In this document: positions 35,648 through 63,485 of the stretch, one piece after another
Numbering within the stretch: the stretch's first letter is position 1
How the letters are laid out: each line of letters starts with the position of its first letter
Origin: a virus
Lineage: Duplodnaviria > Heunggongvirae > Uroviricota > Caudoviricetes
Reading direction: 5' to 3' (one strand)
Length of the DNA stretch: 64,000 nt
Virus record (IMG/VR): IMGVR_UViG_3300033069_001798
Span: 1-64,000 of that record
The notes under the pieces: generated by a model
What the model was told of the DNA's origin: nothing
The model's database searches: none
What the model saw: only the letters and a program-made list of their open reading frames with translations
Position numbers and translations under genes: made by a program

Positions 35648-36841
35648 TCAGAATTCGCCGCGAGTTCCGTGCTTCGCGTAGTAATCAGCTTCGTGCCGAG
35701 CAGAAGACTTCTTGTGCTTCGACCAAGACTTGATCTCTTCTGGCGTTGGCTTCACTGCGTCTGCAAACATGTAGTCAGCGCGTTGAGCTCGGCCGTCAGT
35801 TGTCCGGCACGTGACGTAGCTACCACCAGTCGACGGCGTATCTTCAAACGAAGCGATCTGAACGACAGCACCGCCTGGCAACTTCACCCAGTCACCGACG
35901 TTCCAGCCATCAAATGATGTCATTCCCTCGGTGAGAATCGTTCTGATCATCGACTTAAGCTCGCGAAGCTTGATCTTCATAACGAGTAAGTATTCACCCC
36001 AAAGGTGATCAAACGTCGCAGTGAACTTTCCCCAAGCTTCATCTTTCAGAAGCGACTTAAAGCCGTACTTCTCGAACGTAGAGCGGACTGGCGCCCAATC
36101 TTTGGTCGGTTGCGAAGACGTCATGCCATGCGCCTCTTCGTCAGACCACGTGGTGAACTTGATGAGCGAATAGTTCTTTCGAAAGGCTTCTTTATTAGCA
36201 GGATCATTGAAGAACTCCTTCAACGCATCCGGGTCGTCCATCAGCGCCGTAGCAGCACCATCCGTAATGATCTTTGGGATGTTGTCTGTTGGATCTCCAC
36301 GAAGAGCCTTCCATGTAACGTAATCAGCGGGAGCTTGCTCAACGTAAGCCTTCTTCATGGGGTTGTAGATGCTGACGCCCTCAAATTCATCTAGGAGCTG
36401 CGTGAAGTCAGAATCGTTCGATACAACTGTCCACTTCACGGCTCGTGTGCCACGCTTGATGAGGTTGTAGATTGTGTCATCGCACTCGTGGTGAGGATGA
36501 CGCACGACAGAGAACGGAAAAGAACCAGCCAGCAACCCGACTATCTCGTCGACCTGGCTGAAGAACTTCACCATCTCATCGTGCTCTTTGGTGCCGGCTT
36601 CTACGATGCGGTTCGCTTTGTATTGCGGCAAGATATCGTGACGAGCTTGCGGATGGCCTTCAAGCACGAAATACAAGCGACTGATATCAAGTTTTTCTAC
36701 TAGTGCTCGTATGTTACGAAAAAAATTAAAAACTACAGGAGCTGGACCAGCTGTCCAGCCAGTTCTAGACCGGTGCAAAAAATTCATCCCATCTACTAGA
36801 CAAATATGAGGACGCATAATTCTATTGTTACGTGCTTCCAT
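35648..36841 (-). CDS. 5'-3' exonuclease / flap endonuclease (RNase H-like) with a 110-aa C-terminal extension
   Basis: The N-terminal PIN-like region has CLVDGMNFLHR and HECDD. Residues 288-397 (35648..35980) begin MKIKLRELKSMIRTILTEG (leader motif), followed by a GDLV-type module NVGDWVKLPGGAVVQIASF..YVTCRTTDGRAQR. The first ~51 codons are AT-rich (cassette-derived). Confidence 0.8.
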   Translation of the reverse strand: MEARNNRIMRPHICLVDGMNFLHRSRTGWTAGPAPVVFNFFRNIRALVEKLDISRLYFVLEGHPQARHDILPQYKANRIVEAGTKEHDEMVKFFSQVDEIVGLLAGSFPFSVVRHPHHECDDTIYNLIKRGTRAVKWTVVSNDSDFTQLLDEFEGVSIYNPMKKAYVEQAPADYVTWKALRGDPTDNIPKIITDGAATALMDDPDALKEFFNDPANKEAFRKNYSLIKFTTWSDEEAHGMTSSQPTKDWAPVRSTFEKYGFKSLLKDEAWGKFTATFDHLWGEYLLVMKIKLRELKSMIRTILTEGMTSFDGWNVGDWVKLPGGAVVQIASFEDTPSTGGSYVTCRTTDGRAQRADYMFADAVKPTPEEIKSWSKHKKSSARHEADYYAKHGTRGEF

Positions 36842-37479
36842 TGCTTGTTAAGCTTAATCCGATTTACTTGAGAACGACTAATATTGAACAGTTTCACAAT
36901 GTCACAAACTCTAGTTCCAATTGACAATTGATACTTGATTCCCTTAACATCATCTTCAGTCAATGAACAATTTGGATTTTTCACTCCAATCCGTAGTTTA
37001 GCATGCTCACTAATTTTTTTACGTGCTTGATCAGTAAGATGTGTTCCGAAATTTGGATTTCTAGCGCCACGCAAACCTTCCCAACCAAGTCTTGCACGAG
37101 AAATTGCCTGGCGATGTTCTAGTGACTTAGGTTTTCCGCGGTGTTTATCACTCATTTTCTGACGAGTTTCTATCGAAACAACGCAACCCGTAGATCCTTC
37201 TCCTCCACGCGTCAGATTATAACCTCTATCGATGTTAAACGAATCATAATGTGATATCCAATAAATTTCACGATCATCACACTCATGATCATCACACTCT
37301 TCTAGAATTCGAAACTCGAAATTTTCATGACCATATTTTCGGATGGAACAGTAAAGAGGTCGAAGATCACCTTTCTTGGCAGAATACAAATGTCCTGCTT
37401 TTCTATTGGAAAAATTTTTCGTTTGCCCAACATATACTTTCCCGTTGATTAGATTCTGAATCAGATAAACATATCTCAT
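36689..37479 (-). mobile_element. AT-rich homing-endonuclease cassette 2 (GIY-YIG ORF plus recoded FEN codons 1-51)
   Basis: ~35% GC by hand count at 37261-37320, against GC-normal flanks. It is bounded upstream by a native-composition duplicate of the FEN 5' end (37480..37668). Confidence 0.65.
36796..37479 (-). CDS. GIY-YIG homing endonuclease (I-TevI/Seg-like) with NUMOD3 repeats and C-terminal HTH
   Basis: MRYVYLIQNLINGKVYVGQT..R..H..E..YNLTRGGEGS; SIETRQKMS / SLEHRQAIS / TDQARKKIS; ..VCDIVKLFNISRSQVNRIK. Confidence 0.85.
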   Translation of the reverse strand: MRYVYLIQNLINGKVYVGQTKNFSNRKAGHLYSAKKGDLRPLYCSIRKYGHENFEFRILEECDDHECDDREIYWISHYDSFNIDRGYNLTRGGEGSTGCVVSIETRQKMSDKHRGKPKSLEHRQAISRARLGWEGLRGARNPNFGTHLTDQARKKISEHAKLRIGVKNPNCSLTEDDVKGIKYQLSIGTRVCDIVKLFNISRSQVNRIKLNKQWKHVTIELCVLIFV

Positions 37480-57352: not shown

Positions 57353-57657
57353 AATTCGCCCTTGGGAGCTTCTGCTTGCGGGATGTTAGGATTGCCAAGC
57401 TTCGCATCAGTATAGCGTCGTCCAAAATACAACGCAAGGATAGGAGCAAAATAGCTGGCACATGCAGCAACATCGAATGGACGGACATGAATAGGACCAA
57501 GCGTCTCAAACATGGAGAGCACGTAAGCCAACGTTGTAACCCAAAATGATACGAAGACAAGAGTGACTGTGACGCTTCCATGTCCAGCTGCGTCTTTCAC
57601 CCAATACCACTTAGACTGAACCTCAGTTGGATCAGCGGCTTTCTTCTCTTCTTCCAT
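57331..57657 (-). CDS. Membrane protein (2-3 TM)
   Basis: ATG 57657 (MEEEKKAADP..); VTVTLVFVSFWVTTLAYVL; ASYFAPILALYF. Confidence 0.5.
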   Translation of the reverse strand: MEEEKKAADPTEVQSKWYWVKDAAGHGSVTVTLVFVSFWVTTLAYVLSMFETLGPIHVRPFDVAACASYFAPILALYFGRRYTDAKLGNPNIPQAEAPKGELWHKRSL

Positions 57658-59182: not shown

Positions 59183-59741
59183 GAACTAAGACTGCTCCTC
59201 CTCCGCCGACGCCTCCATCACCTGCTCGATCAGCTGGAGGTGCAGTGAATTCATCTTCCATTTCATCCCTTGACTTACCGATCTCCATGCCATGCTCGTT
59301 GCGAAGCTGCTCTTTGAATGAATCAGCAACTGACTCATCGTAATTCTTCGACAAGAAGTTTGACGCCCTACGCAAGATCGTATTTCTAACTTCTAGCAAG
59401 GAGTCGTAGTTGTCTATCAACCTGACAACGCCGTTGACAAAAGAGCCCACGTCAATGTCTTCAACAGTAAGCTTCTTTGGTTCATCGCTAGAATCATCAC
59501 CCTTGTCGTCATCTTCACCAGCTTCAACGATTCGACGCACAGTCATTCGCCAATCGCGACCCTCGGTCTTTGCGGACTTTGCTTCTTTTTCATAGTCATT
59601 CAAGTAACGATCGACCTGAGAGTCTAGTGAATCTTCTCCCGGCTCTTCTGTTGGTGGCGTTGGCGCTTCGCCTTCTTCTCTGAGAATCTCTTCTCTTAGA
59701 ACACGCCGAAGATCACCCAAGCGAACCTTAAAAGTCTTCAT
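59172..59741 (-). CDS. Acidic protein (189 aa) with strong leader motif
   Basis: MKTFKVRLGDLRRVLREEILREEGEAPTPP... Confidence 0.6.
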   Translation of the reverse strand: MKTFKVRLGDLRRVLREEILREEGEAPTPPTEEPGEDSLDSQVDRYLNDYEKEAKSAKTEGRDWRMTVRRIVEAGEDDDKGDDSSDEPKKLTVEDIDVGSFVNGVVRLIDNYDSLLEVRNTILRRASNFLSKNYDESVADSFKEQLRNEHGMEIGKSRDEMEDEFTAPPADRAGDGGVGGGGAVLVHEI

Positions 59742-60454
59742 GACTTCACCGCCACGCCGATTGCTTCAGCTCTCTTAAAACGATCTTCGCAAACTTCCCA
59801 ATTGATCTCTCTCATCTGAGCGATCAAGTAGCTCTTCTTATCGGTCAAGTAGTCTCTAGCGTATGCATGCTCCCACATGTCGACAACGATCACTGGGTAG
59901 AAGCCTAGTGGGATATCTCCACTGTGGTGGCTGATTGGAACGTTGATGTACTTCTTCAAGAAAGTGTGGTACCCGCAAACAGCCCATCCATTTCCAGCAG
60001 CCATGGCACATGCGATGAAGTCACGTTGCCAATCTTCGAACGTTCCGAAGTCTCTCTGCAGCTTGATGTAAGCGATTGAATCCATCACGATCTCAGAATG
60101 AGGATCGTAGCAGTTCGCAAAGTACAGCTCATGAAGCCACACAGCATTGAGGTTGTACGCTTCATCAAGCTTCAATGACCTGAAGTCACTGTGCTTTGAA
60201 TTTGAAGCGCCCCTGTCAGCAGTGTCAAGCTGCGCAGAAACATTGTTCAACGTGTCAACGTACTCACGGTAAAGAGTTGTGTGCGCTTCTTTGGTCTTCT
60301 GCGAAACCATCTCAGAGACTTGCTTGAACGGCTTCGGTTCTGCAACGTAGGACTCGTTGATCTTTCCAACTTCTTTCACTGCAGCGGAACGCGATAGCGC
60401 ATCTCTGATCGTCTTATCAAGGTCTAGACCTTCCAGTATGTTCTTTTTGCTCAT
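59738..60454 (-). CDS. Fe/Mn superoxide dismutase
   Basis: Ligand contexts KEAH.., NAVWLHELYF and DMWEHAYARDY, with a ~45-aa N-terminal extension. Confidence 0.8.
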   Translation of the reverse strand: MSKKNILEGLDLDKTIRDALSRSAAVKEVGKINESYVAEPKPFKQVSEMVSQKTKEAHTTLYREYVDTLNNVSAQLDTADRGASNSKHSDFRSLKLDEAYNLNAVWLHELYFANCYDPHSEIVMDSIAYIKLQRDFGTFEDWQRDFIACAMAAGNGWAVCGYHTFLKKYINVPISHHSGDIPLGFYPVIVVDMWEHAYARDYLTDKKSYLIAQMREINWEVCEDRFKRAEAIGVAVKS

Positions 60455-60752
60455 GATCTTTTCCTTGTAAGCTCAGCTCGTAATTCTTTTCAAGTTCTTC
60501 TGCATCAATCAGGAATTTTTCACCCTCTGGCGTCCTGAGTATGCAATCGTTAGGACCGACTGAATCCACTGTGTAGCGAATTCCACTGTTCTTGTGAAGA
60601 ACTTTCAGCTCTGGAGCGATGATCATCTTCTCTTCTCCTTTGCCGATCTTTGCAGTCATCGCAACGTCGACGGTCTCCGTTAGAGACGCAACACGTGAGT
60701 CCCACTCTTCACGGAAGACTTCTATGATGTCCTTATCAGTAAGTGCTCTCAT
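60417..60752 (-). CDS. Hypothetical protein (111 aa)
   Basis: ORF. Its ATG overlaps the stop of the native deaminase remnant (ATGA). Confidence 0.5.
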   Translation of the reverse strand: MRALTDKDIIEVFREEWDSRVASLTETVDVAMTAKIGKGEEKMIIAPELKVLHKNSGIRYTVDSVGPNDCILRTPEGEKFLIDAEELEKNYELSLQGKDHEQKEHTGRSRP

Positions 60753-60889
60753 GTTCTCGATGTAAGTATTGCGTCCGATGTTCTCATGACTTCAATACCA
60801 ACTGATTGCAGCAAGACAAGACCTGACGAATCCCTGTACTGGATGTCATACACGACCCTAGAGATTCCAGCGTTGATGATCATCTTGAT
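60749..60889 (-). pseudogene. Orphaned native 3' fragment of the dCMP deaminase gene
   Basis: Hand-translated from 'intergenic' DNA: IKMIINAGISRVVYDIQYRDSSGLVLLQSVGIEVMRTSDAILTSRT*. It aligns with AKSLINSRVGRIVYLQKYRNSTGVKLLREAGIQV of the upstream AT-rich copy. GC-normal composition. Its TGA makes an ATGA overlap with gene 60417..60752. Confidence 0.7.
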
Positions 60890-62166
60890 TCATTTGAGAA
60901 ATCTACTAGATCCTGATAAGAATCAACTTGAATTCCAGCTTCACGAAGCAATTTTACACCAGTTGAATTTCTGTACTTTTGCAAGTACACGATTCTTCCA
61001 ACTCGACTGTTAATTAGACTTTTTGCACACATTATGCATGGAGATGTAGTTACGTAAACTGTGGAATTTTCAAGAGATTCAGATGCGTGAGAAATGGCAT
61101 TAATTTCTGCATGAATGCAACCACAAGAACCTGGTGTTAGGGAATCACAGCCATTAAGCCCTCCAGAATTTGATCCATTGTAGCCCAGGCATAGAACGCG
61201 TTCATTATGTTGATCAACAAAAACTGCGCCAACTCGCAATCTGCAACATGTTGATCTTTTTGCAAATGCAACTGCAACATGCATCCAAATAGAATCATAT
61301 GACGATCTACTGAATGTGCCTATGTCATTTTCATAGTATTCATGAATTTTTTCAATAGGTTCAAGATCGCGTTCATAAATCACGCGAAATTCAATGTTCT
61401 TGTTGGAATAAAAAGATCTAGCGGCTTCGATCTTTTTATTCGTATGTTCATTAACGTAGCCCTTAATCTCTTCAACGACCACGATATTAGAGTCATAATT
61501 GATGAAGAGATCAGGATTGTAATAGTGTGCATTACCTTCTTCATCAGACCAAAGAATTTTATCTTTACATCTACCCCATGCTAGAACTGTATTGTCAAAA
61601 TCCAGTTCTTTGAATCTTCGTAGCTCATAGCTAGAATCGTAATGAACTGTTCCAGCCTTTGTTGACTTGTATCTTCCTTTAAGAAAGTTCTTGTTAAAAT
61701 TTTCTGGTTCGTAAGATCTTTTGTAACAATCACGAGAACAATAACGATCATAATGATGTTTCAGATTGCTTTTCACAAAGTTTGAACAATCTTTTCCACT
61801 GCATTGCACTACAATTTTATTTTGTGAATGAAATGCTAGATAACATTCTCTATCACAAAAACAATTTGCATGCGCAACAATTGTTGAACGATAACGAAAA
61901 TTTGTTTTGTTACACCAAGAGCAATTTACTTGAACATGCGTTATAGATTTTTGTTCAGCTTTGTTGTGCAAAGCGCTACATTTTCTTGAACAAAACTTTC
62001 TTCCATTGTCAGCATAACACTTCAAAACATTGAATGCAGAATTACATTGAACGCATTTAATGGTGACTCGTTTGCTTTTCTGGAAGCATGTTTTTGAACA
62101 GTAATCATTTTTTGACTTTTTTTTGCCATGACAAATAGGACACAAATCTATTTCAGATTGAATCAT
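60880..62166 (-). CDS. Fusion ORF: Zn-ribbon repeats plus PD-(D/E)xK nuclease-like (homing-endonuclease-like) N-part and dCMP deaminase C-part
   Basis: ATG 62166 in an ATGA overlap with the tdk stop. Four CxxC..(F/Y)CSxxC ribbons. YDSSYELRRFKELD..YYNPDLFINY..VVVEEIKG (TnsA-like PD-ExK). C-terminus AKRSTC..GYNG..CIHAEINAI..SPCIMCAK (the CDA zinc motif). The whole ORF is AT-rich (~33% GC by hand count at 61341-61400). Confidence 0.75.
   Translation of the reverse strand: MIQSEIDLCPICHGKKKSKNDYCSKTCFQKSKRVTIKCVQCNSAFNVLKCYADNGRKFCSRKCSALHNKAEQKSITHVQVNCSWCNKTNFRYRSTIVAHANCFCDRECYLAFHSQNKIVVQCSGKDCSNFVKSNLKHHYDRYCSRDCYKRSYEPENFNKNFLKGRYKSTKAGTVHYDSSYELRRFKELDFDNTVLAWGRCKDKILWSDEEGNAHYYNPDLFINYDSNIVVVEEIKGYVNEHTNKKIEAARSFYSNKNIEFRVIYERDLEPIEKIHEYYENDIGTFSRSSYDSIWMHVAVAFAKRSTCCRLRVGAVFVDQHNERVLCLGYNGSNSGGLNGCDSLTPGSCGCIHAEINAISHASESLENSTVYVTTSPCIMCAKSLINSRVGRIVYLQKYRNSTGVKLLREAGIQVDSYQDLVDFSNESR
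60880..62166 (-). mobile_element. AT-rich cassette 3 (nuclease-like module plus replacement dCMP deaminase)
   Basis: The composition break falls exactly at both ORF ends. A native deaminase 3' remnant lies directly downstream. Confidence 0.6.
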
Positions 62167-62732
62167 GTTAGCACTATGAAAGGATGACATCGCAAGCAAC
62201 GCGGCTCGTATAGCTCGTGCCCGCCAACTTCAAGCAACGTTTCATCTTCGCTCTTCTTGTACGTAAAATGAGCATCTTGCGAGCAGATCGTGCACACTGC
62301 TGAGCACTTCTCTATTGACGTTGCCCAAGGCAGCATCTTTGTCACTTCATCGAACGGCTTACCATTGAATGCAGTGTCAAGCGTTGACACTATGATGTTG
62401 TAGCCGTTCCTGTACAAGAACGTCAAAGCATCAGCAACGCCGTTAATCATGAAAGCTTCATCTACTGCGATGATGCTAATGTCGTTGTTCTGCTCTTCAA
62501 GAACTTTCGCAAGAATACCTTCTGCGTTATTGACAGTGACTGCATCGTGACGCCAACCACCGTGCGTCACGATCTGAGACGTAGAGTAGCGATCATCTAT
62601 CGCAGGCTTGAAAACTAGAGCGTTTCTCTTCTGGTACTTGCAACGCTCAAGCTCCATCAACAATCGAGATGATTTTGATGACCACATGGGTCCGACGTAC
62701 ATCACGAATGTTGGATTAGCTTGCTTGCTCAT
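62163..62732 (-). CDS. tdk: Thymidine kinase
   Basis: P-loop GPMWSSKSS and a C-terminal Cys cluster (CSAVCTIC..CLRC). Confidence 0.85.
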   Translation of the reverse strand: MSKQANPTFVMYVGPMWSSKSSRLLMELERCKYQKRNALVFKPAIDDRYSTSQIVTHGGWRHDAVTVNNAEGILAKVLEEQNNDISIIAVDEAFMINGVADALTFLYRNGYNIIVSTLDTAFNGKPFDEVTKMLPWATSIEKCSAVCTICSQDAHFTYKKSEDETLLEVGGHELYEPRCLRCHPFIVLT

Positions 62733-62751
62733 GATCGCTACTCTAACCGGT

Positions 62752-63309
62752 CTAGAGCACTAGTAATCCGACAACGACAAGCGTGTCGAACGGAGGAGCG
62801 CACCCGGCATTCTCTTCTGCGGCAGCCTTGAGAGAATCCAGAACTCTCTTCTTCGCCGGCCCCACGCCCTTCGAAGCCTTCAATGCACCCAACGCTGCAG
62901 GGGATCCAGAGCCAACAGAAGCGTAACCACGAGCACTCTCAACGAGCTGGAAGTTTCCCTCGAGCTCGTGCAGCTCACCCCTGTATGCAATGAGTAGCGC
63001 ACCGTGGAAGTAGTGCTGACCACGATGCTCCTCAGTGCAATCAAACTTCTTCAAACCTTCGCGGATCGCAGGTACCCACTTGCTGACAAGATAGTCCTTC
63101 GCAGAACCGCTCTCGTGCGGCGGGAATTCGATGCCATGCTTGATAGCATCCATGACCTTTGGCAACCCGCAAACACCAACGCCGATGCCGTTCTTCAAGA
63201 AGATCTTCGGATGCTTCAAGAGAACCCTGTCTAGACCGCCACCAGTTGCTGCACGATCACCACCGAGCCAAACGTTCTTTCCCTCAACGACGCCAACAAT
63301 AACAGTCAT
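62752..63309 (-). CDS. Ntn-hydrolase, proteasome beta/HslV-like peptidase
   Basis: MT-VIVGVVEGKNVWLGGD (Thr after the initiator Met) and ..SVGSGSPAALGAL... Confidence 0.6.
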   Translation of the reverse strand: MTVIVGVVEGKNVWLGGDRAATGGGLDRVLLKHPKIFLKNGIGVGVCGLPKVMDAIKHGIEFPPHESGSAKDYLVSKWVPAIREGLKKFDCTEEHRGQHYFHGALLIAYRGELHELEGNFQLVESARGYASVGSGSPAALGALKASKGVGPAKKRVLDSLKAAAEENAGCAPPFDTLVVVGLLVL

Positions 63310-63485
63310 TTTCCATTCTCCTTTTCTTCTTTGTAGTTCACTTCAGTCTGCCAGGCTACTTTTATGAGCTCAACCACTTGATCAATGCTCAACCCGAGCA
63401 TCTCACCGAGCTCAACGACGCTTCTTACTGCTACCTCGAACATCTTCTCAATCGATGGTAGCTGATCTCCTTTTTGCTTTGCCAT
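63306..63485 (-). CDS. Hypothetical protein (59 aa from ATG 63485)
   Basis: MAKQKGDQLPSIEKMF... The track start lies further upstream. Confidence 0.4.
   Translation of the reverse strand: MAKQKGDQLPSIEKMFEVAVRSVVELGEMLGLSIDQVVELIKVAWQTEVNYKEEKENGK

What the first reader, a model, noticed from the sequence alone, without database searches (positions are those of the whole stretch)
60749..62166. AT-rich nuclease-deaminase fusion has overwritten the native dCMP deaminase, leaving its last 46 codons as 'intergenic' DNA
The 127-nt gap 60753-60879, unusually long for this genome, translates on the minus strand to IKMIINAGISRVVYDIQYRDSSGLVLLQSVGIEVMRTSDAILTSRT*. This is the C-terminus of a dCMP deaminase starting right after the PCxxC-AK zinc motif. 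It has normal G+C, and its TGA forms the genome-typical ATGA overlap with the next gene (ATG 60752). Immediately upstream lies a 428-aa AT-rich ORF (~33% GC in a hand-counted 60-mer, against ~57% in the adjacent tdk), itself ATGA-coupled to tdk. It consists of three parts:
- four CxxC..(F/Y)CSxxC zinc ribbons;
- a TnsA-like PD-(D/E)xK core (YDSSYELRRF..PDLFINY..VVVEEIKG);
- a complete dCMP deaminase whose own C-terminus (AKSLINSRVGRIVYLQKYRNSTGVKLLREAGIQV) duplicates the remnant at ~50% identity.

As with the FEN cassette, a nuclease-bearing element appears to have invaded a conserved catalytic-site sequence while delivering a functional, diverged replacement of the gene. Here the replacement is fused in frame to the nuclease.
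Basis: partly seen in the sequence, partly recalled or inferred. Interest (0 to 1): 0.75.

Follow-up and report, generated by a model that had tools for sequence, protein, structure and literature searches.

The report
Nuclease-fused deaminase gene overwrote native one
In an uncultured giant phage, a foreign AT-rich gene encoding a DNA-cutting domain fused to a dCMP deaminase has recently replaced most of the phage's own deaminase gene, and a near-identical relative with the original gene intact shows exactly what was lost; it looks like a selfish gene that carries its own working copy of the gene it destroys.

Summary
A 98.9%-identical relative (L009, IMG/VR) has an intact 145-aa cd between tdk and the downstream gene.

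In the window, 295 nt of that gene (codons 2-100) are replaced by 1275 nt of foreign DNA (60888-62162). This is the lowest-GC stretch of the window (GC 0.35, GC3 0.25). Native codons 101-145 remain as the 127-nt "gap".

The inserted ORF (428 aa) has three parts:
- four Zn ribbons;

At least 33 distinct proteins share this architecture. Every one whose context I read sits at the same locus of the same clade of ~300-kb phages. Their deaminase domains form one clade (NJ bootstrap 100/100), but their carriers are scattered among plain-cd phages. The three copies with decayed nuclease motifs are the three whose GC matches their genome.

Best reading: a homing-type nuclease gene fused in frame to a diverged replacement of its target gene. 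The replacement and the horizontal spread are shown. Cleavage of plain cd by the nuclease is inferred. I rate it a new variant of a known kind.

The parts
60880..62166 (-). Fusion ORF, 428 aa plus stop. It uses the same ATG as the native cd, in an ATGA overlap with the tdk stop.
60888..62162 (-). Foreign (cassette-specific) DNA, 1275 nt, GC 0.349. It replaces 295 nt of native cd (L009 5273-5567).
61672..62166 (-). N-terminal region (aa 1-165) with four CxxC...(F/Y)C(S/D)xxC zinc-ribbon modules, the presumed DNA-binding part. GC3 is 0.22.
   Evidence: Sequence; four repeated hairpin+helix units in the AF2 model; variable number of modules among relatives.
61312..61671 (-). TnsA-like PD-(D/E)xK nuclease core (aa 166-285). 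Motifs: YDSSYE(181)LRR, NPD(219)LF, VE-E(233)-I-K(235)-G.
60883..61311 (-). Complete dCMP deaminase domain (aa 286-428) with GYNG, C-x7-C-x-C-I-HAE and PCxxCAK motifs. GC3 is 0.22, so it is foreign too.
60749..60887 (-). Remnant of the native cd: last base of codon A100, codons K101-T145 and the stop. There is one substitution relative to L009. Native Met102 (ATG 60881-60883) overlaps the fusion's TGA as ATGA, and the remnant's TGA overlaps the next gene's ATG.
60880..60887 (-). Right junction, CAAGATGA. This sequence is identical to native cd but is read in the fusion's frame as ..(S)R*. It is a possible microhomology with the donor's ORF end, and it lies on a 10-bp palindrome, GATGATCATC (60875-60884).
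   Evidence: The fusion's C-terminal tail is the same length as in its closest homologue P0002.
62163..62732 (-). Thymidine kinase gene, the left flank. It is 100% identical in protein to L009, and identity runs up to the ATGA.
60417..60752 (-). Conserved 111-aa gene downstream, the right flank. It is 99% identical to L009 and follows cd in nearly all relatives.

Best explanation
The window carries a recent, nearly gene-precise allelic replacement at the dCMP deaminase (cd) locus of an uncultured ~310-kb phage.

**What replaced what**
- The incoming gene encodes one polypeptide with three parts: Zn-ribbon DNA-binding modules, a TnsA-like PD-(D/E)xK nuclease, and a ComEB/T4-type dCMP deaminase.
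- It belongs to a locus-specific mobile gene family.

**Proposed mechanism**
- The family spreads among related phages as free-standing homing endonuclease genes do ('intronless homing').
- During co-infection the nuclease cuts the plain cd allele of a phage that lacks it.
- The break is repaired from the nuclease-bearing genome, and the nuclease gene is copied in.
- The copy comes with its own deaminase sequence. That sequence is too diverged to be cut, and it keeps the recipient cd+.
- The nuclease and the 'rescue' copy of the target are a single ORF expressed from the native cd start codon.

**This particular event**
- The donor was a lower-GC relative that has not been sampled.
- The left join is at the tdk/cd ATGA.
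- The right join is illegitimate: the end of the donor ORF is joined to CAAGATGA inside the recipient's cd, just after the PCxxCA codons.
- As a result 45 native codons were stranded.

**Shown**
- The replacement, its boundaries and its recency.
- The foreign composition.
- The domain identities.
- The family, its single locus and its horizontal distribution.
- The decay of the nuclease in some copies.

**Inferred**
- That the nuclease is active.
- That it cuts plain cd. The candidate site is the KKKHMYVTHSPC codons just upstream of the junction.
- That this cutting drives the spread.
For: **1. Empty-site allele**
- L009 has an intact 145-aa cd.
- The flanks are 98.97% (1838 nt) and 98.93% (3284 nt) identical to the window.
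- The breakpoints fall at ATGA and CAAGATGA.

**2. Independent assemblies**
- The filled allele is identical in three assemblies from different samples, L052-L054.

**3. Composition**
- The cassette has GC 0.349 and GC3 0.25. It is the lowest-GC stretch of the window, z = -4.4.
- The other two AT-rich islands of the window are GIY-YIG homing-endonuclease genes.

**4. Family**
- 33 distinct proteins have nuclease core plus deaminase.
- All 11 loci read sit just upstream of the small gene and the SOD-like gene.

**5. Phylogeny**
- The deaminase domains of the fusions are monophyletic against 31 plain cds (NJ bootstrap 100/100).
- On the SOD-like tree the carriers are interspersed with plain-cd phages:
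  - window sister to plain L009;
  - L006 sister to plain L017;
  - L043 next to plain L046.
- L006 against L017 (78-85% nt identity) shows a second, whole-gene replacement with ORF-precise boundaries.

**6. Nuclease**
- E181, P218 and D219 are at least 90% conserved in 150 relatives.
- 117 of the 150 best relatives are free-standing, with the nuclease at the extreme C-terminus and variable HTH or Zn N-termini. This is the modular build typical of homing endonucleases.

**7. Homing-cycle signature**
- 8 of 11 loci have intact catalytic motifs. All 8 have GC below their genome (-0.036 to -0.127).
- The 3 with broken motifs are L042 (D to T), L044 (D to N, ExK lost) and L055 (E181 to I).
- These 3 are exactly the 3 whose GC matches the genome (+0.005, -0.016, +0.010).
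- The chance of that ranking is 1/165.
- The deaminase motifs are intact in all copies.

**8. Candidate target**
- The plain cds are most conserved at nucleotide level at KKHMYVTHSP, immediately upstream of the junction (0.79).
- That is exactly where the fusion cds differ most (0.25-0.38).
Against: - There is no biochemical evidence that the nuclease cuts anything, and none for its target.
- The Pfam TnsA hit of this protein is just below the curated cut-off (24.6 against 26.5 bits).
- No co-conversion tract of donor flank is visible. The nearest flank mismatches lie 170 nt and 115 nt from the junctions, at background density.
- The donor is unsampled. The closest homologue is 52% identical.
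- The right junction is non-homologous, which classical double-strand-break repair from a homologous donor does not predict.
- The trees are NJ on single short markers. The SOD-like tree was not bootstrapped.
- The GC/decay correlation rests on 11 loci that are not phylogenetically independent.
- Locus fidelity could also result from ordinary homologous exchange of alleles.
Confidence: 0.65

Rival explanations
1. Bifunctional salvage enzyme spread by selection, not drive. The nuclease domain degrades host or competitor DNA to nucleotides, and the fused deaminase converts the released dCMP to dUMP for dTTP synthesis. The gene sits among tdk, thyA and cd. The allele replaces plain cd through ordinary recombination because it is advantageous.
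For: - The locus is a nucleotide-metabolism cluster, with thyA, tdk, cd and other genes.
- The fusion junction (YENDYGxFxRP) is well conserved.
- The nuclease catalytic residues are kept in most members.
Against: - The nuclease is dispensable. It has decayed in L042, L044, L055, P0010, P0011 and others while the deaminase stays intact.
- The four Zn ribbons, and the HTH arrays in free-standing relatives, point to sequence-specific binding rather than bulk degradation.
- The composition is AT-rich like the other homing genes of this genome.
- The phyletic pattern is patchy.
Confidence: 0.12
2. Weapon for interference competition or superinfection exclusion. The nuclease cuts the cd region of co-infecting relatives mainly to cripple them. 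Copying of the gene is a by-product.
For: - A phage intron-encoded homing endonuclease has been reported to contribute to competition between co-infecting jumbo phages (abstract of PMC11620839, listed).
- This reading has the same anatomy as the best explanation.
Against: - It is not exclusive of homing.
- The observed outcome here is conversion of the recipient locus, not merely its loss.
- cd is dispensable in some phages (my own knowledge, for T4). Cutting it would damage the genome as a double-strand break rather than through loss of cd function.
Confidence: 0.15
3. Plain recombinational allele swap in which the nuclease domain played no part. It would be an inert passenger or a domesticated DNA-binding or regulatory domain. 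Illegitimate recombination at ATGA-type microhomologies introduced a xenologous cd from a co-infecting relative.
For: - Both junctions lie on ATGA-containing sequence. The right one is non-homologous.
- No co-conversion tract is visible.
Against: - It does not explain why the only cd lineage that hops between phages is the one fused to a nuclease.
- It does not explain why catalytic residues are conserved in compositionally foreign copies and lost in ameliorated ones.
Confidence: 0.06
4. The fusion is ancestral to the group and plain cds arose by loss of the nuclease; or the structure is an assembly chimera.
For: The fusion occurs at the same locus in many relatives.
Against: - Plain and fusion deaminases are separate clades (100/100).
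- The remnant in the window is the 3' end of the plain type, 97.8% identical to L009.
- Three independent assemblies give the same filled allele.
Confidence: 0.02

Closest known systems
Free-standing homing endonuclease genes of T4-like phages (seg/mob genes; 'intronless homing')
   Same: - A nuclease gene sits next to a conserved phage gene.
- It shows presence/absence polymorphism between close relatives.
- It is AT-rich.
- It is inherited by repair of a cut made in the genome that lacks it, and the carrier is protected by sequence differences in the target gene. The mechanism is as reviewed in PMC2988022.
   Different: - Here the nuclease is translationally fused to the diverged copy of the target gene, so the unit that moves is one ORF that substitutes for the resident gene.
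- The catalytic domain is TnsA-like PD-(D/E)xK with Zn ribbons, not GIY-YIG or HNH.
- Cleavage is untested.
TnsA, the endonuclease subunit of the Tn7 transposase (PDB 1t0f)
   Same: - The E...D...(E/Q)xK motif.
- Relatives score above the Pfam PF08722 cut-off.
   Different: - There is no TnsA C-terminal domain.
- No TnsB/TnsC partners or transposon ends are present.
- A deaminase follows the nuclease instead.
- It is not part of a Tn7-like transposon.
PD-(D/E)xK-type homing endonucleases. This is one of the six recognised homing endonuclease families listed in the abstract of PMC6083498. I-Ssp6803I is the example I know (own knowledge).
   Same: A restriction-enzyme-like catalytic core is used by a selfish, site-specific nuclease gene.
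   Different: - Those are intron-encoded and small.
- This one is free of any intron (no Rfam hit).
- It carries Zn-ribbon arrays.
- It is fused to an enzyme.
Inteins and in-frame intron ORFs
   Same: A homing nuclease is encoded in frame with a host protein.
   Different: - There is no Hint/splicing domain.
- The nuclease is N-terminal, not inserted.
- The product is expected to remain a fusion.
- The host gene is replaced, not interrupted and restored.
Synthetic 'cleave-and-rescue' gene drives: a nuclease plus a recoded, cleavage-resistant copy of its target (own knowledge, not checked in the library)
   Same: The same logic: destroy the resident allele and supply a resistant functional copy linked to the nuclease.
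   Different: - This one is natural and phage-borne.
- It is a single ORF.
- It spreads by copying into the cut locus rather than by killing non-carriers.
Phage and bacterial dCMP deaminases (T4 Cd, cyanophage S-TIM5 Cd, ComEB type)
   Same: - The deaminase domain has the HAE and PCxxC zinc motifs, GYNG, and extra Cys residues upstream of HAE.
- It occupies the cd locus.
   Different: - It carries a 285-aa N-terminal nuclease module.
- It is only 36-42% identical to the plain cds of most of its own phage group.

Membership tests
dCMP deaminase (cytidine/deoxycytidylate deaminase zinc-binding fold, PF00383) | Score above the curated Pfam cut-off | tested here: met
   81.4 bits against 25, aa 291-395; phrog_174 'dCMP deaminase', E 3.7e-47.
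dCMP deaminase (cytidine/deoxycytidylate deaminase zinc-binding fold, PF00383) | Catalytic H-A-E and P-C-x-x-C zinc ligands | tested here: met
   H352-A353-E354 and P376-C377-x2-C380 are invariant in 11 family members.
dCMP deaminase (cytidine/deoxycytidylate deaminase zinc-binding fold, PF00383) | Fold closest to solved dCMP deaminases rather than other deaminases | tested here: met
   [not shown]
dCMP deaminase (cytidine/deoxycytidylate deaminase zinc-binding fold, PF00383) | Deaminates dCMP | not testable with these tools
   Inferred only, from its position in place of the native cd and from homology.
TnsA-like PD-(D/E)xK endonuclease (PF08722) | Score above the curated Pfam cut-off | tested here: inconclusive
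   This protein scores 24.6 bits against 26.5. Homologues P0005, P0007 and P0009 carry precomputed PF08722 hits. Free-standing relatives score 37-43 bits.
TnsA-like PD-(D/E)xK endonuclease (PF08722) | Catalytic acidic residues and Lys (E ... D ... E/Q-x-K) | tested here: met
   E181, D219 and E233-x-K235. E181, P218 and D219 are at least 90% conserved in 150 relatives.
TnsA-like PD-(D/E)xK endonuclease (PF08722) | Restriction-endonuclease-like fold | tested here: met
   [not shown]
Tn7-like transposon | TnsA C-terminal domain, a TnsB/TnsC partner and transposon ends | tested here: not met
   A deaminase follows the nuclease. The neighbours are tdk and phage genes. No terminal repeats of the insert were found.
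Homing endonuclease gene (free-standing type) | Presence/absence polymorphism at a precise site between near-identical genomes | tested here: met
   Window against L009, 98.9% identical flanks.
Homing endonuclease gene (free-standing type) | Sporadic distribution, with the phylogeny of the element discordant with that of its carriers | tested here: met
   (single-marker NJ trees).
Homing endonuclease gene (free-standing type) | Site-specific cleavage of the allele that lacks the gene, with the carrier allele immune | not testable with these tools
   Only a candidate site is available: the KKHMYVTHSP codons, conserved in plain cds and diverged in fusions.
Homing endonuclease gene (free-standing type) | Co-conversion of flanking donor markers | tested here: not met
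   No donor-type tract. The nearest mismatches lie 170 and 115 nt from the junctions, at background density.
Homing endonuclease gene (free-standing type) | Degenerate copies after fixation (homing cycle) | tested here: met
   L042, L044, L055, P0010 and P0011 have broken motifs but intact deaminases. The three such loci with context have GC equal to their genome.
Intein or group I intron with an endonuclease ORF | Hint splicing domain, or a group I/II intron RNA | tested here: not met
   No Hint or LAGLIDADG Pfam hit. No Rfam intron hit at E <= 1 in 60300-62900.

The most novel reading that the evidence does not exclude
This is a natural single-ORF 'cleave-and-replace' element. It would be a previously undescribed family of homing nucleases (Zn-ribbon or HTH arrays plus a TnsA-like core) that has become translationally fused to a cleavage-immune xenologue of its own target gene. 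It would spread through a clade of jumbo phages by overwriting the resident dCMP deaminase gene while keeping the recipient cd+. The same nuclease module also appears embedded in frame in giant polyvalent proteins (P0121, P0133). In-frame capture of host genes may therefore be a general habit of this nuclease family.
Probability: 0.5. Interest if true: 0.8.

Novelty: new variant of a known kind. Interest (0 to 1): 0.7.

Why it matters
**A caught-in-the-act replacement.** The pair of near-identical genomes shows the before and after of a phage metabolic gene being replaced, with base-pair boundaries.

**A new way for a homing nuclease to avoid harming its host.** Known solutions are to hide in a self-splicing intron or intein, or to sit beside the target. 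Here, if the nuclease is shown to cut plain cd, the element instead brings a working, resistant copy of the target in the same reading frame.

**It would explain xenologous replacement.** This mechanism could account for replacement of core nucleotide-metabolism genes in phages.

**A new nuclease family.** It would add a TnsA-like catalytic family to the homing endonucleases. Modular Zn-ribbon recognition may be of interest for engineering.

**A parallel to synthetic drives.** It is a natural counterpart of synthetic cleave-and-rescue gene drives.

Tried and rejected
- **Near-identical DNA in cultured phages.** Megablast of 59700-63400 against 50,697 phage records found no match. Cultured phages match only the deaminase part of the fusion. 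The SOD-like neighbour finds only PA5oct-like jumbo phages, at 24% identity.
- **Remnant alone against Pfam.** No hit.
- **Sequence search of the nuclease core against PDB.** Only chance-level hits. The fold search was needed.
- **Word-indexed homologue search with the nuclease core alone.** Nothing found. The full HMMER scan found 718.
- **Counting filled and empty alleles by exact DNA patterns.** The native-specific 36-mer occurs only in the L009 contig. It has no match in JGI metagenome contigs. The filled-junction 37-mer is absent from IMG/VR. The shared remnant 37-mer is absent from metagenome contigs. Allele frequencies could not be estimated.
- **Remnants of a native cd behind the other fusion genes.** None found.
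- **Donor co-conversion tracts in the flanks.** None found.
- **Group I intron or intein.** Rejected.
- **Own promoter or terminator in the cassette.** Consensus matches do not exceed shuffles.
- **Terminal direct or inverted repeats of a transposon.** None. There is only a 10-bp palindrome at the right junction. It also occurs in the downstream gene and persists in the carrier, so it cannot be the whole target.
- **Internal start for a separate deaminase.** The candidate Met is the conserved 'WM' of all cds. No Shine-Dalgarno-like sequence was seen by eye upstream. I rejected this as unsupported.
- **Literature.** Nothing on DUF7487, on TnsA-like homing endonucleases, or on nuclease-deaminase fusions.
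Full report
**What is in the window**

On the minus strand the gene order is as follows:
- a thymidine kinase gene (62163-62732);
- a 428-aa ORF (ATG 62166, stop 60880-60882) whose ATG overlaps the tdk stop as ATGA;
- a 127-nt stretch with no called gene (60753-60879);
- a conserved 111-aa gene (ATG 60752);
- a SOD-like gene.

The ORF has GC 0.349 and GC3 0.249. For comparison:
- tdk: 0.470 and 0.537;
- the 111-aa gene: 0.452 and 0.438;
- the SOD-like gene: 0.478 and 0.573.

It is the lowest-GC 1287-nt stretch of the whole 64-kb window (mean 0.490, sd 0.032, z = -4.4). The contrast itself is real.

The two other AT-rich islands of the window (16611-17480 and 36796-37479) encode GIY-YIG homing-endonuclease-like proteins. 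In this genome, low GC marks mobile nuclease genes.

**Domains of the ORF**

Deaminase:
- Pfam gives dCMP_cyt_deam_1 at aa 291-395, 81.4 bits against a cut-off of 25.

Nuclease:
- Pfam gives Tn7_TnsA-like_N at aa 204-265, E 3.9e-5 and 24.6 bits, just under the 26.5 cut-off.

The nuclease motifs are YDSSYE(181)LRR, NPD(219)LF and VE-E(233)-I-K(235)-G. E181, P218 and D219 are conserved in at least 90% of 150 relatives.

Residues 1-150 hold four CxxC...(F/Y)C(S/D)xxC units. The model shows them as four repeated hairpin-plus-helix modules.

There is no Hint domain and no intron RNA.

**The decisive comparison**

I searched IMG/VR with the SOD-like neighbour and obtained 43 related loci from contigs of up to 369 kb. 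One of them, L009 (IMGVR_UViG_3300033121_002167), is the same phage at about 99% identity:
- tdk 100% identical in protein;
- the 111-aa gene 99%;
- the SOD-like gene 100%.

Between tdk and the 111-aa gene L009 carries an intact 145-aa cd with the HAE and PCRMC motifs.

Base-by-base comparison gives the junctions:
- Identity runs through the shared ATGA (window 62163 / L009 5272), then stops.
- It resumes at CAAGATGATC (window 60887 / L009 5568).
- The flanks are 98.97% identical over 1838 nt and 98.93% over 3284 nt.

So 1275 nt of foreign DNA (60888-62162) stand in place of 295 nt of native cd. The lost part is codons 2-99 and two bases of Ala100, which covers everything up to P-C-R-M-C-A. 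Lys101 to Thr145 and the stop remain, with a single substitution.

The filled allele is identical in three independent assemblies from different samples, one of them a 313,755-bp contig. This excludes a chimera.

The direction of the event is clear. A stranded 3' end of the plain type can only be left over from a plain gene.

**Details of the junctions**

- The fusion ORF uses the native start codon, and therefore the native translational coupling to tdk.
- Its last codons (..S-R-stop) are read from sequence identical to native cd, taken out of frame (CA AGA TGA).
- The C-terminal tail after the conserved DL(V/I)DF is the same length as in the closest homologue P0002. The donor ORF probably ended at this same TGA.
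- I infer that the right join occurred in a short microhomology (up to CAAGATGA) between the end of the donor ORF and an internal site of the recipient cd. This makes it an illegitimate join.
- The fusion's TGA overlaps native Met102 as ATGA, and the remnant's TGA overlaps the next ATG. A 44-aa remnant ORF therefore bridges the two genes in the genome's usual ATGA style. Whether it is translated is unknown.
- No donor-type co-conversion tract is present in either flank.

**The cassette belongs to a family**

- A protein search found ten other proteins with the same full-length architecture at 35-52% identity.
- An exhaustive HMMER scan with the nuclease part found 718 cluster representatives at E <= 1e-3.
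- Among the 164 sequences in hand, 33 have the nuclease core followed directly by the deaminase.
- 117 are nuclease-only. They typically have the core at the very C-terminus (median tail 5 aa) and a variable N-terminus of HTH or Zn modules. Such free-standing relatives score 37-43 bits on PF08722.

Every fusion gene whose context I read sits at the same place: upstream of the small gene and the SOD-like gene, in the thyA/tdk neighbourhood, in what is plainly one broad group of uncultured ~300-kb phages. This covers 11 distinct loci:
- L001, L002 and L006;
- L042, L043, L044 and L051;
- the window's own phage (L052);
- L055, L056 and L057.

About 30 other members of the group have a plain cd of 141-222 aa at that place.

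**Vertical or horizontal?**

- The deaminase domains of all fusions form one clade, separate from the 31 plain cds (NJ, bootstrap 100/100).
- On the SOD-like tree, carriers are interspersed with plain-cd phages:
  - the window is sister to plain L009;
  - L006 is sister to plain L017;
  - L043 sits next to plain L046.
- L006 and L017 are 78-85% identical in DNA on both sides. They differ by a whole-gene replacement whose boundaries again coincide with the ORF start and end.
That is not what the data say.
  - Some relatives do lack a GC break.
  - The element's tree still disagrees with the carriers' tree.
  - The window's own lineage still has the empty site.

**A homing-cycle signature**

I compared the GC of each fusion gene with the rest of its locus:

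| Locus | GC of gene minus rest of locus |
|---|---|
| window | -0.127 |
| L043 | -0.118 |
| L051 | -0.082 |
| L056 | -0.071 |
| L001 | -0.055 |
| L006 | -0.050 |
| L057 | -0.039 |
| L002 | -0.036 |
| L044 | -0.016 |
| L042 | +0.005 |
| L055 | +0.010 |

Plain cds average -0.012 +/- 0.025.

The last three loci are exactly those whose nuclease motifs are broken:
- L044 has lost the N-terminal half, has PD changed to PN, and has lost ExK.
- L042 has PD changed to PT.
- L055 has E181 changed to I.

The deaminase motifs are intact everywhere. The chance of this exact ranking is 1/165. The sample is small and the loci are not independent.

The pattern fits invasion by an active, compositionally foreign nuclease gene. 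Amelioration and decay of the nuclease would follow, with the deaminase kept by selection. It also shows that the deaminase does not need the nuclease.

**Where might it cut?**

In a codon alignment, the plain cds are most conserved at nucleotide level (0.79 identity to L009) over the codons KKHMYVT(HSP), just upstream of PCxxC. The fusion cds are most different there (0.25-0.38). That stretch ends about 20 nt before the right junction. It is a candidate target and nothing more.

The 10-bp palindrome GATGATCATC at the junction recurs in the downstream gene and persists in the carrier genome. It cannot be the complete target.

**Interpretation**

Shown:
- a recent, gene-precise replacement of the native cd by a foreign nuclease-deaminase ORF;
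- the family, its locus specificity and its horizontal distribution;
- the decay of the nuclease in some lineages.

Inferred:
- The nuclease cleaves plain cd alleles during co-infection. Repair then copies in the fusion gene, as free-standing homing endonucleases do in T4-like phages ('intronless homing'; PMC2988022).
- The fused, diverged deaminase serves both as the immune allele and as the functional replacement.

The likely origin is a free-standing gene of the 'DNA-binding modules plus C-terminal nuclease' type that lay upstream of a cd and lost its stop codon. The C-terminal position of the nuclease in free-standing relatives fits this.

Rivals:
- a bifunctional salvage enzyme;
- a competition weapon (compare PMC11620839);
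- passive recombination.

All are less well supported, but only biochemistry and crosses can exclude them.

**Comparison with what is known**

The closest known thing is intronless homing by free-standing endonucleases. The differences are:
- the in-frame fusion of the nuclease to a replacement copy of the target;
- a TnsA-like catalytic domain with Zn-ribbon arrays.

I found no description of either in the held literature. It is not a Tn7-type transposon, an intein or an intron. I rate it a new variant of a known kind, with interest 0.7.

Noticed in passing
L009 8684-9589, against window 57579-57604: The empty-site relative L009 carries an extra insert of about 830 nt that the window lacks. 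It holds a 301-aa ORF with a GIY-YIG-like 'FYVGKG' N-terminus and NUMOD3-like repeats. The two ~99% identical phages therefore each have a nuclease gene the other lacks.
   Followed up: partly
window 16611-17480 (-) and 36796-37479 (-): The two other AT-rich islands of the window encode GIY-YIG (SegE-like) proteins, the second with a NUMOD3 motif. The second overlaps the start of a FEN-like 5'-3' exonuclease gene (35648-36841).
   Followed up: partly
window 60875-60884 and 60618-60627: A perfect 10-bp palindrome, GATGATCATC, lies exactly at the right junction. It recurs as part of a 12-mer repeat (AAGATGATCATC on the minus strand) inside the downstream 111-aa gene.
   Followed up: partly
window 60749-60883 (-): The remnant forms a 44-aa ORF. 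Its ATG overlaps the fusion's stop (ATGA) and its stop overlaps the next gene's ATG (ATGA). This could relay translational coupling to the downstream gene.
   Followed up: no
P0121 (2526 aa), P0096 (1519 aa), P0133 (1319 aa), P0153 (3540 aa): The same TnsA-like core is embedded in the middle of giant proteins. In the three that were scanned it is preceded by HTH modules. Two of them carry 'large polyvalent protein' domains (LPD1, LPD39) and one also InPase. P0153 was not scanned. This suggests in-frame insertion of the nuclease module into other genes.
   Followed up: partly
L040 4575-5669 (+): A 364-aa ORF overlaps the 3' end of that phage's plain cd. It has a '...VVDMLV...EYYGSYWHFD' motif reminiscent of Vsr/DUF559-type nucleases but no Pfam hit. 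It may be a different nuclease gene inserted at the same locus.
   Followed up: no
L002 2-949 (-) and 3231-4082 (-); L001 1802-2599 (-); L052 4545-5462 (-): Free-standing DUF7487 genes, one of which also scores on TnsA-like_N, lie on the opposite strand among the thyA/tdk genes of these phages. One is in the window's own phage, just outside the window.
   Followed up: partly
L011 3466-3918 and 4115-4990: The CCA-adding enzyme (PolyA_pol family) gene that lies between tdk and cd in many relatives appears split into 150-aa and 291-aa ORFs with a ~200-nt gap in L011.
   Followed up: no
L017 4151-4819, L038 5063-5623, L036 3870-4433, L023 5135-5656: Some plain cds carry N-terminal extensions of about 30-80 aa. 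L017 and L038 share an 'FEEAWAE...GYQYG.DALEQVR.GWEL' extension. L036 and L023 have Cys/His-rich ones. Their function is unknown.
   Followed up: no
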